Origin: Girardia tigrina
Taxonomy: Eukaryota
Assembly (NCBI GenBank): GCA_001938485.1
Contig: MQRK01225151.1
Coordinates: 9,318-61,136, forward strand
Direction: 5' to 3'
DNA: 51,819 nucleotides
Every line of letters starts with the position of its first letter. The first letter of the stretch is position 1. Made by a program: the position numbers. Below, in pieces: positions 1-44,500 of the stretch.

Positions 1-3000
1 AAATTAATATGTAAATAAAAATTAATACTAAAACTACAAAATTGAATTTTAAAAATAAAATCAGAAAATAATGAAAAATTTGTTCGAATAATTGTTTATT
101 GACAGACATTAATAAAAAAATATCAATTTAGAACGATGTCGAATGACGAGAGTTTCGCTGAGAGTTGTCCAAAAGACGATTCTGATTGTAATGAAAATAA
201 AAGTTTGAAAAGCCATGTTGGTGTTCTTAATATGTCTTATTAAAGAGAAATAATTTATAGTTTAAATTATTAATATTTTTTAAATTATTAATAATATTAT
301 TTTCAAAGATCTAAATTTATGCAAAATTGAATAAAATAACATATTTATATATTTATCGATATTATTATGTATATTTAGAATTTTTTAGATCTGGATTATG
401 TAATTGAAATAGTTCCTCATAAATTTGTTTCAATAATGAAAATTGTAGTATGAATAAAGTTTGCAAAATTATGAATTCTGATTTCAATCACGAACCTAAT
501 AGTTTTAATTACTTTCGCTGAACCACCGAAACGTTGAATCAGATATGATCTGAGTGAATTTTGCAACAGGAAATAATAAAAGTATTACTTATTTCGAGCA
601 AAAAAAACATAGAATGAACGCGTTGCGTGCTTACTGCACAAATTTGTCCATCTCTATCGCGCTCATAAGCAAGCGCAGAAGCACTTTAAAATATGGTTCC
701 ATATGATTTTCACCGTAATAATGAAGTAAATTCGATGACCTATTCAAAATTATTTTAATTTAGTATACTTTACCGCTACATAATTTTCATTGTTTTATCT
801 ATTATATTATGTGTTGTAATTGTTAAATTTTTTTAACAAAAAATTTTATTAAAGACTTTTTTTAATGATTTTTTTTGAATTTAATAATTTTGTGCAATTT
901 TAATTAAATATTTATGTATATGTGCAATAAAAATTCAAAAAATATATATAACTATGTGTTTGGTTTATCGCTTCCATATGTCATATCCCAACGCACGCCA
1001 CTGTTACCGGTGTAACTTTTTCAATTATCGATTTTAATTTGATAAATTGTTTCCTTACAGCTTGATCTGTCTGTATGTTACCATAAATCATCAATTTTCG
1101 ATTGTTTCATTTAGCAAGAAATATTTTTTCTTTCCATATTTTAAAAATATAAAATTAATAAAAACATCCGTACAACAGATGGACTTTATAGGTACACAGA
1201 AAAGATTGTCATCACCTTTTCTTAAATAAGAAATGATAATATTTCCTTTATTTATTTTTAATAATTATTATATTTCTTTCAGAGCTCAGACAAAACCAAA
1301 ACTAATGTTCCGTAAGAAATGCAAGAAATTATCTTCCCAAATATTCTAATTTCATTTGTTAGTTCAACTTTAGTTTAACTTTTCTTTTGAAATTTTATAA
1401 CAATTTTTCTATGTACATCCGTATAAAAATAGTTAATATTTTTATAAATGAAAGTATTTCAATAATAATTTGTTCATTTAAAAAAAACCAACCGAACTTT
1501 AGGAGTAATGAATGATACTACGTCCTCATACAACAATGGTACCATAAATGAGGTAATGTTTTACTTAATTTAAATATTTATAGCTACATAAAAATATTTT
1601 AGGAGCCATCATACTTTCAATCATTAAAGATGTTTTATAAGGTCGTCATTTATCTTCTACTTCTTGTCGGTTATGTTGGGAACATTCTTACGGTCATAAC
1701 TCTAAAATTTGAAAGCGGTGTTAGGCCCTTCACCAAAACGTTATTTTATCTACAAGCATTTTGGGATACGATGGTATTATTCGTTGCAGCCACGCGTTAT
1801 TTAATTCTCATTGAATTTAATATTGATATCCGAGAATTGAATGTGTATTTTAAATGGCTTCATCATTACCTCACATATGTGACATACAATTGTTCTGGAT
1901 GGATTCTTTGTGCTCTTTCGGTAGAAAGAATGGGTTTAGTCATTTGGCCGACAAATTTGTACCTTCGAAATCTTACTAGTACAAGGGCACTCTTACTTTG
2001 TCCATTATTCATGGGTCTTAGTCTATGCCTAAATTGTGCTTTAGTTATTGATACTAAATACAGAAAGATAATTTCGGCTTACATGTTACTGATATTTAAC
2101 AGTATTTTACCTTTCATAGTCATATTTTTCTCTACTTTTATTACAATTTATAAAATAAAAATCAATCTTCAAAAAGTAAGTACAAATTCGTCTCAAAATA
2201 ACCGAAATTCTCCTCTTTTCGTGATGAAAATGGTTCTGATTATCGCTATATATTACCAAATAACAACGATTCCAATAACGGTTTACTTAATTTTTGATAG
2301 CGGATTTGATTTTGTATTCACTAATATTTATTTTTCAAGTTCTTTCTATAACGGAACAGCGCTAATTTTAGCTTCAAACGCGGCACTTAAGTTTTATCTC
2401 TACAACTTGTCGACTCCTCACATACGGAAAGTGTTGAAGAAAATGGTGCGTAAGGTTGGATGGGAAAGAAGGACTACTGTCAGACCGATTACAACCGAAT
2501 AAATTTTGATTGAACTAATTATTTATTTTTAAATAAATATTTCCCGTTATTATTTTCTTTGTAAAGTAATATGCTACAATGGCATTAGGATGTACTATAT
2601 TTAATTTTACAACTAATATTTAAAAGAAAAATCATCAAAATAAAAAATATAGACTTTCAAACAAATTTTCGTTAACTAAATTTTTTATTTCCCAAACTCC
2701 ATAATTAATTTAGTTTTAATTATTTTCCTAAATTTTATTCTAATTTTATTTTTATCAATTTTAATTTATCAATTTTTATCTATCATATTATAAACTCCTT
2801 TTAAATTTTTTTATTTATTCAACTTGCTAATTATTGGGTTCTTGATCAAAAGACGTTGCCATGAACACAAAACTTTATTTCTACCACAATTTGAGTTTTT
2901 TTAAACAAATATTTCCGAGGAACTTTTGCACTTTCTTTTTACACAATCATTATAAATAAGAATTGATATATAAATATAAATATGGTTATTGTATTTTTTT

Positions 3001-41500: not shown

Positions 41501-44500
41501 AAAATTTAAAACGCTCAGTGTCAAAGTCAAAGTGTGTAGGTATGTTTTTTGTTCACCAATCTATTTCATAGTTCGATTTCATAGAAATTTGCATTTAAAA
41601 AGTCTACTACAACGCTAATTATCTAAAAATAAACCTGACAATGAAAGGTGCAGTGACTTTCTGAACGCACTGTATTTATTTTACTTTTTGAGAATTTTAT
41701 TAAGGTTTGAAAGCCTTTGTGGACTTAATAATTATATAATTATTTTATGAATTTTAGGTATTAGAGATTAGAATCTAAATTTTAACACAATTATCAAAAC
41801 AGCAACAGTGTCAGAATCTAGAGTTACAATTTTATATTTCTGCAGGTTGTAGGGCGTTTTAACCAATGTACATTCTCAACATCGGTCAGGGTTGAAAATG
41901 TACATGTGTAGAAAGGGCCAACTTCTTTTTTAGTAACTGTGTTATTAATCTTTCGGTAAAAAGTTATTTATCATAAAGTATAATTAAAATATTGTTTCTT
42001 CTCCAATAATGTGTGATTTTTCAATGTAAACTTTCTATTATTTTTATGGCTTATTTATTTATTGTCATAAATAAAAATAAATATTTAGCAAAAATAAATA
42101 TTTTCAAAAATAACTTCAATTAGAATTATATAACAAAATGTCATTTTCTTTGCAAACAAAAGATACTCATTTGTATGAAAAAACTATTTGAGTTCACTGT
42201 TTGAGTTCAGTGCTTCCCAGTCATTTTCTTGAATACTTCTTTGAATATTTTTTTAATAATAGTTCTCATATGATTACTAGCGAGGCTGTAGAGATAGAAC
42301 TTTACGGCATTGTAGGACAATGACAAAATTGATGTTGAATAGTAAAAAGCATTAACTTTATACTTATTAAAATATGTCTCCGGATGGCTGTTGAGTATAA
42401 TAAGTACAACTGAGAGTGGAGTTGCAGAGACCACGTAATATACTGATGTAACCAAGACCATTTGGATGGCAAAAAGTACGGATTGTTGTAACGGGGACTT
42501 TGATATATTCGATATTTTTCTGAAACTTTTTCTTACTTTAACAAATGTCACCAAATTGGATAAAAATAATATAATAAATGAAATAAATGTCTTAAAAACT
42601 AATTTAAGATATGAAGCAATTTCGTGACCCTTTGGTATTTTTAAAAAATAACTGCTATTTAGGGCTAAACTTAGAATAATAAATGTTATGGTAATTATTA
42701 AACATTCTTTGTAAGAAAGTCGTTGTAAGAAGGGTTTTGTTGGCCAGACAACGAGAAACATTCGTTCCACGGAGAGGACGCATAAATACCAAACGGAACA
42801 ATCTGTAGATAAATATGCCAAATACATGTGGATCCATTTCATATAAAGACTTATGGTTCGGATATCAAAACGATATATAATAAATATTAAATAGCGAGTG
42901 CCAGATATAAAAAGGACAAGGGTATCACATAAGGCTTGAAGGTATAATAGACATTTGGTGAACACTCTGAGGTCTCTATCGAATTTCAAACAAACAATAG
43001 TTAAAATATTTCCCAAATATCCAAATATTAATATAAATATCAACAGAATTTCCAAAACTTTAAATGTGACTTTATAATATCTTGGCTTCTGTAAAAATAT
43101 AATAATGAAAATATAAATAAAATATAAATTACCTCAACAAGTAATGTTCCATTAATTGTAAAATTTTGATCCATGAGGTTTACAATGTTTGAAGAATTAA
43201 TTAAATTTTCGAAGCCCGAACAAATGGGAAGTAATTCTTAATAAATTGTTTAAATAGACATAATTAAAATTTAAGCAGCAAATAAAAACAAACTATTTTA
43301 CTAATGAAGAAAGATTTTTCATTTGACATTTTCCTAAAAAGATTTTCAATTTTTTTGATTTGTTGTTTTAATGGCGTTCGTTTCCTTTGTTATCCTTTTC
43401 TAATTTTAATAATTTTATCAAAAATTATTATTTTTTTAATAAAAATATATAAATTTAACTAATATCTAATCGCTTTTTACTTAATATTTTATTTTGAAAT
43501 ATAAATAATTTTAAATATATTGTAAACATAAGTATAATATTATTTTATAATAAAGATCCGATAATTCATATACTAACAGTCTTGGAAATACAAGTTTTCA
43601 TAATTTTGATAAATATTTCCCTAATGCTCTTTTGAATGAATCAATTTATACTATATACCATATAAGTAGGAAGAGATACAGTCAATTCCCCATAATCGAA
43701 CTAATTACCAATTAAAAACAACATTTATAAATTGTAAATCAAACTTTTATCCATGACTTCTCAGGGCTTAGACTATACATCTTGTTAATTCCTGTTCCGT
43801 AGTTATTAAGAACATTAATTGAGTTTCCTTTACATTTATTATTATCACAATTTGAATTGTCACTAGAACAATTCTCCGTAAAACTTGCGTAGCTCGTCAT
43901 CGTTCTTCATTGATAATCTTTAATAATATTCTTTAAAGTCTTATTGTTCAAACAAATTTAAAATACAATTTAATCATTACAAAAATAATTTATACTTTAA
44001 ATTATAATTTAATTATTACAAAAATATTTATAATTGAAATTTAAAATAATTTTTATTTATTTTAAGAAATTATTATTAAAATATTATTTATGAAAATTAG
44101 TTTAATTTTAAAGTGATTATTTAACTTTCAATAATTGATTAAACAACTCGAAGTTTTAAAATATTTAAAATATCAATCTTCCATCTGGGTGGGAGAAACA
44201 CAATCCTAAAACAACATACCAAACAACACACAATAAACACAATTCAAAAATATTCATCACAGTAGTTATTGATAAACAGTAGTGAGAGTTATAAGTATCT
44301 TTGAACTTTGTTTAATCTATTTTAGACTAGTCAATGGTATAAATAAATGATATAAATGTTAATAAAAATATGACAAATTAACGATTCATTTAATAAAAAT
44401 GTATTGAAATTTTGTTAATAATAAAACCGAAAGATAAAAAGAAGTATGAACGGGAGTGTTGAGAGCATTAAGCCACTTATTATTTGAACATTTATTATTA

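What the first reader, a model, noticed from the sequence alone, without database searches (positions are those of the whole stretch)
1508..43174. Cluster of five compact GPCRs with a rewired class A core: Lys at 7.49, no TM3-ECL2 disulfide, minimal ECL2
Seen: in all five paralogs NPxxY is replaced by KFY(L/V)Y while the TM2 Asp (D2.50) is kept, and DRY is ERM. The Cys at the top of TM3 and W4.50 are absent. The span from the TM4 Asn to the TM5 Pro position is exactly 25 residues in every paralog, leaving a Cys-free ECL2 of only about 6-8 aa. Known: D2.50/N7.49 form the allosteric Na+ site, and the C3.25-ECL2 disulfide is near-universal in class A; the N..xFxLY TM7 pattern is typical of FMRFamide-receptor/srw-like lineages. 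Inference: this is a lineage-specific, tandemly expanded chemoreceptor-like family with an open ligand pocket, where K7.49 may salt-bridge D2.50 in place of Na+. These ORFs are intact while the surrounding sequence has decayed, which implies purifying selection.
[Added by the scan's program, not by the reader: the finding's places include an assembly gap (unread letters, written N; its length is only estimated) at 17658 to 18001, 19882 to 19931, 32506 to 32855, 36650 to 36786, 40292 to 40341, 40581 to 40640. Whether the letters on both sides are continuous or in frame is not known: test that first.]
Basis: partly seen in the sequence, partly recalled or inferred. Interest (0 to 1): 0.72.

Follow-up and report, generated by a model that had tools for sequence, protein, structure and literature searches.

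The report
Receptor gene cluster with lysine core
Five intact neighbouring genes encode small rhodopsin-type receptors in which a normally invariant asparagine deep in the core is a lysine and the usual outer lid loop has been deleted, which marks a distinct and apparently undescribed receptor subfamily.

Summary
The window has five paralogous class A receptor genes (31-49% identical). All carry K-F-Y-(L/V)-Y where N-P-x-x-Y is usual, plus D2.50 and E-R-M. All lack C3.25 and any Trp in TM4, and all have the same spacing across extracellular loop 2 (ECL2). No assembly gap touches any exon or intron.

New here:
- Each gene has two exons. A 9-15-codon first exon carries the ATG and N-glycosylation sequons, followed by a 44-53-nt phase-0 intron. 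Three of the five need this exon to have a start codon.
- K7.49 is found in 26 of 154 fetched database proteins, all from unnamed sources. Of the 115 relatives with Asn there, all 115 have N-F-x-x-Y and 109 keep C3.25.
- Changes near 2.46, 2.49, 6.43, 6.44 and 7.43 go with the lysine.
- A 12-residue ECL2 deletion goes with loss of the disulfide.

The genes look selected. Their second exons are the five longest open stretches in the window, and the inner helix thirds are 54% identical against 28% for the outer thirds.

A lysine in the sodium pocket of the prostaglandin D2 receptor DP1 is a precedent. Organism and expression are unknown.

The parts
1508..1552 (+). Gene 1, exon 1: ATG plus 15 codons with two N-x-S/T sequons; donor GTAATG follows
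1553..1602 (+). Gene 1, intron: 50 nt, phase 0, ends TTTTAG
1603..2502 (+). Gene 1, exon 2: 299 codons plus stop, holding all seven helices and helix 8. An internal ATG lies at 1630. D2.50, ERM, KFYLY.
18520..18564 (+). Gene 2, exon 1: ATG plus 15 codons with one sequon; donor GTAAGA follows
18565..18613 (+). Gene 2, intron: 49 nt, phase 0, ends TTTTAG
18614..19495 (+). Gene 2, exon 2: 293 codons plus stop. It has no in-frame ATG ahead of TM1, so exon 1 is needed for a start.
24350..24376 (+). Gene 3, exon 1: ATG plus 9 codons with one sequon; donor GTAACC follows
24377..24420 (+). Gene 3, intron: 44 nt, phase 0, ends CTTTAG
24421..25284 (+). Gene 3, exon 2: 287 codons plus stop. An internal ATG lies at 24433. 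TM7 reads KFYVY.
35958..35999 (-). Gene 4, exon 1: ATG plus 14 codons with one sequon; donor GTATTA follows
35905..35957 (-). Gene 4, intron: 53 nt, phase 0, ends TTTTAG
35023..35904 (-). Gene 4, exon 2: 293 codons plus stop. The only ATG before the TM1 Gly-Asn would cut off most of TM1.
43133..43174 (-). Gene 5, exon 1: ATG plus 14 codons with two sequons; donor GTAATT follows
43089..43132 (-). Gene 5, intron: 44 nt, phase 0, ends TTACAG
42207..43088 (-). Gene 5, exon 2: 293 codons plus stop. It has no in-frame ATG ahead of TM1. Ser at 5.50 and Tyr at 7.45.

Best explanation
These are five functional two-exon genes for small (296-314 aa) rhodopsin-type (class A) G-protein-coupled receptors. 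They belong to a distinct subfamily of a large N-F-x-x-Y receptor superfamily.

Shown:
- The fold is a seven-helix class A receptor with helix 8.
- The family-defining changes came in layers. The whole superfamily has F7.50, no W4.50, Thr at 6.48 and Asn at 5.58.
- The Lys-7.49 group adds K7.49 with D2.50 kept. It also has Gln/Glu at 2.46 (at 2.45 in two window genes), Trp at 2.49 and Tyr at 6.43, and it has lost F6.44 and Y7.43.
- The window's own sub-group then lost C3.25 and the ECL2 Cys, together with a 12-residue deletion that removed the ECL2 beta-hairpin.
- The inner, transducer-facing third of the helices is conserved among the paralogs and the outer third is not.

Inferred:
- The lysine's amino group sits in the pocket where other class A receptors hold Na+. 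There it pairs with D2.50, possibly sharing Q/E2.46. It would act as a built-in cation that holds the resting state and has to be displaced on activation.
- The lidless, wide outer pocket lets the paralogs take different ligands (small molecules or peptides) while signalling through one shared partner.
For: Class A identity:
- A profile of the five genes hits 91 solved receptors. Best are KISS1R, PrRP receptor and galanin receptor 1, at E about 1e-9.
- The AlphaFold model of gene 1 exon 2 has pLDDT 93.4 and pTM 0.90, with seven helices plus helix 8.
- Foldseek matches CCR1, NTSR1, orexin, opioid, TRH and PrRP receptors at TM 0.70-0.78.
- 21 of 31 Lys-group members hit Pfam 7tm_1 and 9 of 31 hit Srw at E<=1e-3.

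Family make-up:
- Of 159 sequences (5 window genes plus 154 fetched), position 7.49 is K in 31, N in 115, R in 3, H in 1, Q in 1 and missing in 8.
- D2.50 is present in 30 of 31 K sequences; the other is truncated.
- Co-varying columns are listed.

ECL2:
- The span is 26 steps in 5 of 5 window genes and in 16 of 18 relatives without Cys at the 3.25 column.
- It is 38 steps with one Cys in 5 of 7 C3.25-bearing K members, and also in P0022.
- The median is 39 in the N group, where 113 of 114 have a Cys in the span.
- Modelled ECL2 is 5 loop residues in gene 1, against a two-strand hairpin in P0017.

Selection:
- Open-frame statistics.
- dN/dS is 0.17-0.36 in the 7 of 10 pairs where dS is defined.
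- Pairwise identity is 54% in inner thirds, 38% in middle thirds and 28% in outer thirds. 23 of 39 invariant columns lie in the inner third.

Gene model: 5 of 5 genes pass the mini-exon test, against 46 of 4132 AG sites (1.1%) in the window.

Plausibility of the cation role:
- In DP1, K76(2.54) salt-bridges D72(2.50), takes the place of Na+ and acts as an activation switch.
- In the same paper, the side chains at 2.50 and 7.49 come within 3.0 A of each other (PMC12508460, passages).
Against: - No distance between K7.49 and D2.50 could be measured, because the model tool gives no coordinates.
- There are no expression data of any kind.
- The organism is unknown, and the relatives come from unnamed sources on 1-2 kb contigs.
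- The Lys/Arg group as a whole appears as one clade (33 of 78 taxa) in the neighbour-joining tree. Its bootstrap support is only 5 of 60, or 10 of 60 with the Lys column removed. A single origin of K7.49 is therefore not shown.
- The no-Cys core of 23 taxa has 70 of 100.
- dS is saturated, so the dN/dS values are rough.
- Three of five genes depend on a predicted, unverified splice.
- S3.39 and N7.45, which help bind Na+ elsewhere, are mostly kept (23 and 25 of 31). An intact ion site is therefore not excluded.
- Only 1 of 5 genes reaches the Pfam cut-off for 7tm_1, and only 1 of 5 for Srw.
Confidence: 0.6

Rival explanations
1. The lysine is not a sodium substitute bound to D2.50. It belongs to a different polar network, for example with Gln/Glu at 2.46 or 2.45 and the Tyr residues at 6.43, 6.44 and 7.53 on the cytoplasmic side of the pocket. 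It might then favour an active-like, ligand-independent state.
For: Position 2.46 changes from Leu (108 of 115 in the Asn group) to Gln or Glu (25 of 31) together with the lysine. Tyr appears at 6.43 in 24 of 31. S3.39 and N7.45 stay largely conserved.
Against: D2.50 is kept in 30 of 31. Positions 2.50 and 7.49 are within contact range in solved receptors (PMC12508460). Two window genes keep Leu at 2.46.
Confidence: 0.25
2. They are neuropeptide receptors rather than environmental chemoreceptors. The lidless pocket would admit peptides, as it does in melanocortin receptors.
For: The best sequence and fold matches are all peptide receptors. Melanocortin receptors combine a 3-residue ECL2 without C3.25 and C45.50 with peptide ligands (PMC10390531). 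PROF1 receptors of flatworms were classed as peptide-responsive by SVM (PMC3261222).
Against: The copies are many, clustered and old, with strongly diverged outer halves (28% identity) and very short N-termini. This is the pattern of chemoreceptor-like expansions. No ligand evidence exists for either reading.
Confidence: 0.35
3. The genes have one exon. The upstream AG is a trans-splice acceptor or means nothing, and the copies without an ATG are young pseudogenes.
For: Genes 1 and 3 have an internal ATG just ahead of TM1. No transcript was available.
Against: 5 of 5 genes have ATG, sequon, a GTA donor, 44-53 nt and a pyrimidine-rich AG in phase 0, against a 1.1% background (0.46% with a GTA donor). 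The copies without an ATG are as open and as conserved as the others.
Confidence: 0.08
4. The ORFs are neutral remnants or chance open frames.
For: The surrounding sequence is mostly decayed mobile elements.
Against: The five longest open stretches of the window are these exons, and 200 shuffles never exceed 153 aa. 39 columns are invariant across copies that are saturated at silent sites. The fold prediction is confident.
Confidence: 0.02

Closest known systems
Class A peptide-type receptors (Pfam 7tm_1; KISS1R, PrRP receptor, galanin, opioid, orexin, TRH receptors)
   Same: Seven-helix fold plus helix 8. N1.50, D2.50, S3.39, E/D-R at 3.49-3.50, P6.50 and Y7.53 are all present.
   Different: K-F at 7.49-7.50 in place of N-P. 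No W4.50, no W6.48, no Y5.58 and no C3.25-ECL2 disulfide. ECL2 is about 5 residues. Sequence identity to solved receptors is 11-18%.
Nematode Srw and FMRFamide-receptor-like chemoreceptors (Pfam 7TM_GPCR_Srw)
   Same: Weak profile matches over TM5-TM7. The genes form a clustered, diversified family.
   Different: Only 1 of 5 window genes and 9 of 31 Lys-group members match. Scores lie far below those expected of true members.
Flatworm PROF1/Srfb and the planarian Srf/w family
   Same: Divergent rhodopsin-like orphans with F after the 7.49 residue, M or C after the TM3 Arg, no W6.48 and compact genes (PMC3261222 Table 3; PMC4862687).
   Different: Published PROF1 motifs give N, S or D at 7.49 and L or I at 2.46, and the genes are described as intronless. 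Here 7.49 is K, 2.46 is Q in 3 of 5 genes, and there is one short intron. No sequence comparison was possible because the supplements are closed and no tool finds a protein by its name.
Melanocortin receptors MC1R-MC5R
   Same: Very short ECL2 lacking both C3.25 and the ECL2 Cys, which gives a wide open pocket (PMC10390531).
   Different: Not close in sequence; they are absent from the top matches. They keep an acidic or Asn 7.49 motif (recalled).
Prostaglandin D2 receptor DP1
   Same: A buried lysine ion-paired to D2.50 fills the sodium pocket and serves as an activation switch (PMC12508460).
   Different: That lysine is at 2.54, is reported as unique among class A receptors, and occurs in a single receptor. 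Here the lysine is at 7.49 and defines a whole clade.

Membership tests
Class A (rhodopsin-like) GPCR, Pfam 7tm_1 | Profile score at or above the Pfam gathering cut-off (30.5 bits) | tested here: inconclusive
   Gene 2 scores 30.9 bits (met). Gene 3 scores 29.7, gene 5 19.0, gene 4 18.4, and gene 1 has no hit. 21 of 31 Lys-group members match at E<=1e-3.
Class A (rhodopsin-like) GPCR, Pfam 7tm_1 | Seven-helix class A fold with helix 8 | tested here: met
   pLDDT 93.4, pTM 0.90. Foldseek TM is 0.70-0.78 to many solved class A receptors. The profile hits 91 PDB receptor sequences.
Class A (rhodopsin-like) GPCR, Pfam 7tm_1 | Hallmark residues N1.50, D2.50, R3.50, P6.50 and Y7.53 | tested here: met
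   5 of 5 genes at each position.
Class A (rhodopsin-like) GPCR, Pfam 7tm_1 | N-P-x-x-Y in TM7, W4.50, and the C3.25-ECL2 disulfide | tested here: not met
   K-F-Y-(L/V)-Y in 5 of 5. No Trp in TM4 in 5 of 5. No C3.25 in 5 of 5.
Nematode Srw chemoreceptors (Pfam 7TM_GPCR_Srw) | Profile score at or above the cut-off (22.2 bits) | tested here: not met
   Gene 3 scores 32.8 bits. Genes 4, 2, 1 and 5 score 21.4, 16.5, 12.5 and 11.0. That is 1 of 5.
Flatworm PROF1 / Srfb | TM7 motif [N/S/D][F/G/I]..[Y/F/M/L], as in Table 3 of PMC3261222 | tested here: not met
   Lys at the first position in 5 of 5 (table read). The table lists only the two commonest residues per position.
Flatworm PROF1 / Srfb | Intronless genes | tested here: not met
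   One 44-53-nt intron is predicted in 5 of 5 genes, although all seven helices lie in one exon.
Flatworm PROF1 / Srfb | Sequence clustering with published members, and platyhelminth origin | not testable with these tools
   The published sequences are in supplements, which are closed. The organism of the window is not known. The listing of cluster members and the Atlas gave no answer.
Opsins (retinal-binding lysine) | Lys at 7.43, six residues before position 7.49 | tested here: not met
   Position 7.43 is A, M, M, I, L in the five genes. The lysine sits at 7.49, fixed by Y7.53 four residues on.

The most novel reading that the evidence does not exclude
A whole natural clade of class A receptors has replaced the diffusible allosteric Na+ by a built-in lysine at 7.49. 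Changes at 2.46, 2.49, 6.43, 6.44 and 7.43 co-evolved with it, and the ECL2 lid and its disulfide were lost later. If so, this is a second, independently evolved solution to the tethered-cation switch so far seen only in DP1, and a ready-made comparative series: Asn-7.49 relatives, Lys with lid, Lys without lid.
Probability: 0.35. Interest if true: 0.7.

Novelty: new variant of a known kind. Interest (0 to 1): 0.5.

Why it matters
Position 7.49 and D2.50 lie at the heart of the class A activation switch and of sodium's allosteric control. A clade that keeps D2.50 but puts a fixed positive charge opposite it is a natural experiment on that switch.

The three nested steps found here give ordered comparison points that mutagenesis studies lack: N-F-x-x-Y relatives, then Lys-7.49 with the lid, then Lys-7.49 without lid or disulfide.

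For genome annotation, these genes are easy to miss or truncate. Pfam scores are borderline, and the start codon sits on a 27-45-nt exon.

Tried and rejected
- Word-index protein search with gene 3 found nothing at E<=1e-3 among 2015 candidates. The exhaustive profile search was needed.
Rfam and tRNA scans of the window found nothing.
- A sixth copy was ruled out. The K-F-Y-L-Y at 48872-48886(-) has no flanking similarity, so it is taken as chance in AT-rich sequence.
- An opsin-like lysine was rejected by position (membership test).
- A single origin of K7.49 is seen in the point tree but is not supported by bootstrap.
- dN/dS is saturated in 3 of 10 pairs and rough in the rest.
- A first tree attempt failed on undefined distances and was redone with Poisson distances.
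- A full-text search for K7.49, Lys7.49, KFYLY, KFxxY or NFxxY found 4 papers, none about receptors.
- No clear viral hallmark turned up. Pfam scans of 30 non-receptor ORFs gave transposase, BED, helix-turn-helix, GIY-YIG, ubiquitin and SBDS domains only, with no capsid, reverse transcriptase or integrase. No long terminal direct repeats were found. I therefore could not say which stretch the operators call virus-like.

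
Full report
**1. What is in the sequence**

The window is AT-rich: G+C is 28% overall with Ns removed and 18-39% in 2-kb steps. It holds five long ORFs whose products align over their whole length at 31-49% identity. They lie at 1630-2502(+), 18626-19495(+), 24433-25284(+), 35023-35832(-) and 42207-43055(-).

tblastn with each ORF finds the other four at E 1e-25 to 1e-82 and nothing else above noise. The seven N runs of the window all lie between genes, and none touches an exon or the short intron described below. The program's worry about continuity therefore does not affect the gene models.

**2. The observation**

Numbering is fixed by the invariant Gly-Asn of TM1, Asp of TM2, Glu-Arg-Met of TM3, Pro of TM6 and Tyr of TM7.

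- All five genes have N1.50, D2.50, S3.39, W3.41, E-R-M, P6.50 and K-F-Y-(L/V)-Y at 7.49-7.53.
- None has Cys at 3.25, and none has any Trp in TM4.
- The distance from the TM4 Asn to position 5.50 is identical in all five, with 25 residues between.

Small corrections: the fifth gene has Ser at 5.50 and Tyr at 7.45, and the first gene has a Cys beside the TM4 Asn.

**3. Gene structure (new)**

Only genes 1 and 3 have an in-frame ATG ahead of TM1 in the long ORF. All five share the following:

- a pyrimidine-rich AG that ends a codon just upstream of TM1;
- 44-53 nt further up, a GTA donor;
- in phase 0 before the donor, an ATG followed by 8-14 further codons (9-15 in all) carrying one or two N-x-S/T sequons.

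The same test passes at 46 of 4132 AG sites of the window (1.1%), or 19 of 4132 if a GTA donor is required. Five of five is therefore far beyond chance.

The first-exon ATGs of genes 1 and 5 are the finding's own bounds, 1508 and 43174. C3.25-bearing relatives such as P0015, P0017, P0018 and P0024 start with Met-Asn/Asp and carry a sequon in the same place. Predicted products are 314, 308, 296, 307 and 307 aa.

Exon 2, which holds all seven helices, was used alone. The first exons are too short for the search tools, so they were not searched.

**4. What they are**

Pfam is borderline:

- 7tm_1 reaches its cut-off in 1 of 5 genes;
- Srw reaches it in 1 of 5;
- Srsx reaches it in 1 of 5.

Other evidence is clear:

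- A profile of the five genes finds 91 solved class A receptors, best KISS1R, PrRP receptor and galanin receptor 1 at E about 1e-9.
- An AlphaFold model of gene 1 exon 2, built on a 150-sequence alignment, has pLDDT 93.4 and pTM 0.90, with seven helices and helix 8.
- Foldseek places it among chemokine, neurotensin, orexin, opioid, TRH and PrRP receptors at TM 0.70-0.78 and 11-18% identity.

**5. Relatives**

The word-index search found nothing. The exhaustive profile search found 3264 proteins at E<=1e-3 and 16 at E<=1e-30.

I aligned the best 150, four more, and the five window genes to the family profile. That makes 159 sequences. Position 7.49 is distributed as follows:

| Residue at 7.49 | Sequences |
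|---|---|
| Lys | 31 (5 window + 26) |
| Asn | 115 |
| Arg | 3 |
| His | 1 |
| Gln | 1 |
| Missing (fragments) | 8 |

All 115 Asn sequences read N-F-x-x-Y. Of these, 109 have C3.25 and 113 have D2.50. Thr is commonest at 6.48 (77) and Asn at 5.58 (97). No TM4 column is rich in Trp.

Columns that change with the lysine:

| Position | Asn group (of 115) | Lys group (of 31) |
|---|---|---|
| 2.46 | Leu 108 | Gln 16, Glu 9 |
| 2.49 | small residues | Trp 19 |
| 6.43 | varied | Tyr 24 |
| 6.44 | Phe 87 | Tyr, His or Ser |
| 7.43 | Tyr 77 | Ile, Leu or Met |

There is also an F-T-K motif at the start of TM2. In the window, genes 1, 4 and 5 have Gln at 2.46. Genes 2 and 3 keep Leu there and carry Glu or Gln at 2.45.

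**6. Loss of the lid**

Seven Lys-group members still have C3.25: P0012, P0015, P0017, P0018, P0024, P0043 and P0107. All seven have a Cys in ECL2, and five of them have a TM4-to-5.50 span of 38 steps. P0022 fits this pattern too, with its Cys one column off.

The 18 other relatives have a span of 26 steps in 16 cases, and so do all five window genes.

The model of P0017 (pLDDT 92.1) shows a two-strand hairpin in a 16-residue ECL2. The model of gene 1 shows five loop residues and no strand. A 12-residue deletion thus went together with loss of both cysteines.

**7. Tree**

I built a neighbour-joining tree of 78 near-full-length sequences.

| Group | Bootstrap support |
|---|---|
| Six lid-bearing Lys sequences | 100 of 100 |
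| 23 lid-less sequences | 70 of 100 |
| Genes 2+3 | 98 of 100 |
| Genes 4+5 | 95 of 100 |
| The five window genes as an exclusive group | 1 of 100 |

The cluster therefore holds old lineages rather than a recent burst.

All 31 Lys sequences plus two Arg sequences form one clade in the point tree. That clade has only 5 of 60 bootstraps, or 10 of 60 with the Lys column removed. A single origin of K7.49 is likely but not shown.

**8. Selection**

- The five second exons are the five longest stop-free stretches of the window.
- Silent sites are saturated (pS 0.60-0.79). Where dS is defined, in 7 of 10 pairs, dN/dS is 0.17-0.36.
- Using the modelled helices, pairwise identity is 24% in outer loops, 28% in outer thirds, 38% in middle thirds and 54% in inner thirds. 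23 of 39 invariant columns lie in the inner third.

This is the pattern of a family that keeps one transducer interface and diversifies its ligand side.

**9. Mechanism**

The lysine lies at the position whose side chain faces D2.50.

In DP1, the side chains at 2.50 and 7.49 come within 3.0 A of each other. A different lysine, K76(2.54), salt-bridges D2.50, takes the place of Na+, stabilises the resting state and moves on activation (PMC12508460, passages read).

I therefore think a K7.49-D2.50 ion pair acting as a built-in cation is the most likely role. I could not measure it, because the model tool returns no coordinates and none are stored. The co-varying Gln/Glu at 2.46 is a possible second or alternative partner.

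From memory only: the reciprocal N2.50/D7.49 swap in the GnRH receptor is classic evidence that these two positions interact.

**10. Ligand type**

Melanocortin receptors have a 3-residue ECL2 without C3.25 and C45.50, and they bind peptides in a wide open pocket (PMC10390531, passages).

**11. Comparison with print**

Flatworm PROF1 receptors share F at 7.50, M or C after the TM3 Arg and loss of W6.48. However, Table 3 of that paper gives N, S or D at 7.49 and L or I at 2.46, and calls the genes intronless (PMC3261222, passages and Table 3).

The passages I read on the planarian Srf/w family (199 genes) and on the liver-fluke fwRhods gave no TM7 motif for them (PMC4862687; PMC6114109). Their sequence lists are in supplements, which were closed, so these genes may already be catalogued there.

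A full-text search for K7.49, Lys7.49, KFYLY, KFxxY or NFxxY found no receptor paper.

I cannot name the organism. An AT-rich animal genome with 44-53-nt introns and many mariner, hAT and Tc1 remnants would fit a planarian, among others, but that rests on recollection and not on a test.

**12. Surroundings**

Between the genes lie the following:

- pieces of mobile elements: a BED-finger hAT-like element, mariner- and Tc1-like elements, and a GIY-YIG ORF;
- an SBDS-like pseudogene;
- a ubiquitin-like ORF.

None of the 30 non-receptor ORFs scanned showed a capsid, reverse-transcriptase or integrase domain. I described these elements only and repaired or joined nothing.

**13. Left unchecked**

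- the organism and the sources of the relatives;
- expression;
- the lysine-aspartate distance;
- the joined two-exon proteins (left out on purpose);
- the closed collections metagenome contigs and viral contigs;
- the genome-contig scan, which I did not run because it holds bacterial and archaeal genomes only.

Noticed in passing
window 4213-4943 (+): An intronless copy of the ribosome-maturation gene SBDS, 72-82% identical to unnamed database proteins P0155-P0158. It reads in two frames that abut, and no long open frame covers its second part, so it looks like a processed pseudogene.
   Followed up: partly
window 6359-8039 (-): hAT-like transposon remnant. A BED zinc finger (Pfam E 1.7e-9) lies at its 5' end, and the rest is split into at least five separate open pieces in different frames.
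   Followed up: partly
window 23322-23962 (-), 50755-51586 (+), 40261-41434 (-): Three mariner/Tc1-superfamily transposase remnants, with matches to Transposase_1, HTH_32 and DUF4817. The third is interrupted by two assembly gaps.
   Followed up: partly
window 44787-46399: Tc1-like element bounded by 132-nt inverted repeats (92% complementary). It encloses ORFs with a DDE_3 domain (E 2e-19) that are split between frames.
   Followed up: partly
window 37033-37416 (+): Lone ORF with a GIY-YIG nuclease domain (E 1.8e-5). From memory, this is the endonuclease type of Penelope-like retroelements. No reverse-transcriptase ORF was found next to it.
   Followed up: no
window 31055-32032 (+): Two adjacent ORFs, the first ending in a ubiquitin-family domain (E 1.3e-10) and the second Lys/Glu-rich. 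The region has the strongest GC skew of the window (0.235).
   Followed up: no
window 48872-48886 (-): An isolated K-F-Y-L-Y in a short open stretch, with no other similarity to the receptors. Taken as chance in AT-rich DNA.
   Followed up: yes
window 39540-39855, 44457-44769, 49143-49265; also 18300-18461 and 27393-27554: Copies of dispersed repeats (72-80% alike) on both sides of gene 5 and upstream of gene 2. (TA)n tracts border the gap at 19882-19931.
   Followed up: no
proteins P0025, P0045, P0129 (also P0131, P0092): Relatives with Arg at 7.49 (His in P0131, Gln in P0092). Two of the Arg forms (P0045, P0129) fall inside the Lys clade in the point tree, which suggests that a basic residue is what matters there.
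   Followed up: partly
window 13393-13818 (+): A 142-aa open stretch that from memory resembles the C-terminal tail of non-LTR retrotransposon reverse transcriptases. Pfam gave no hit.
   Followed up: partly
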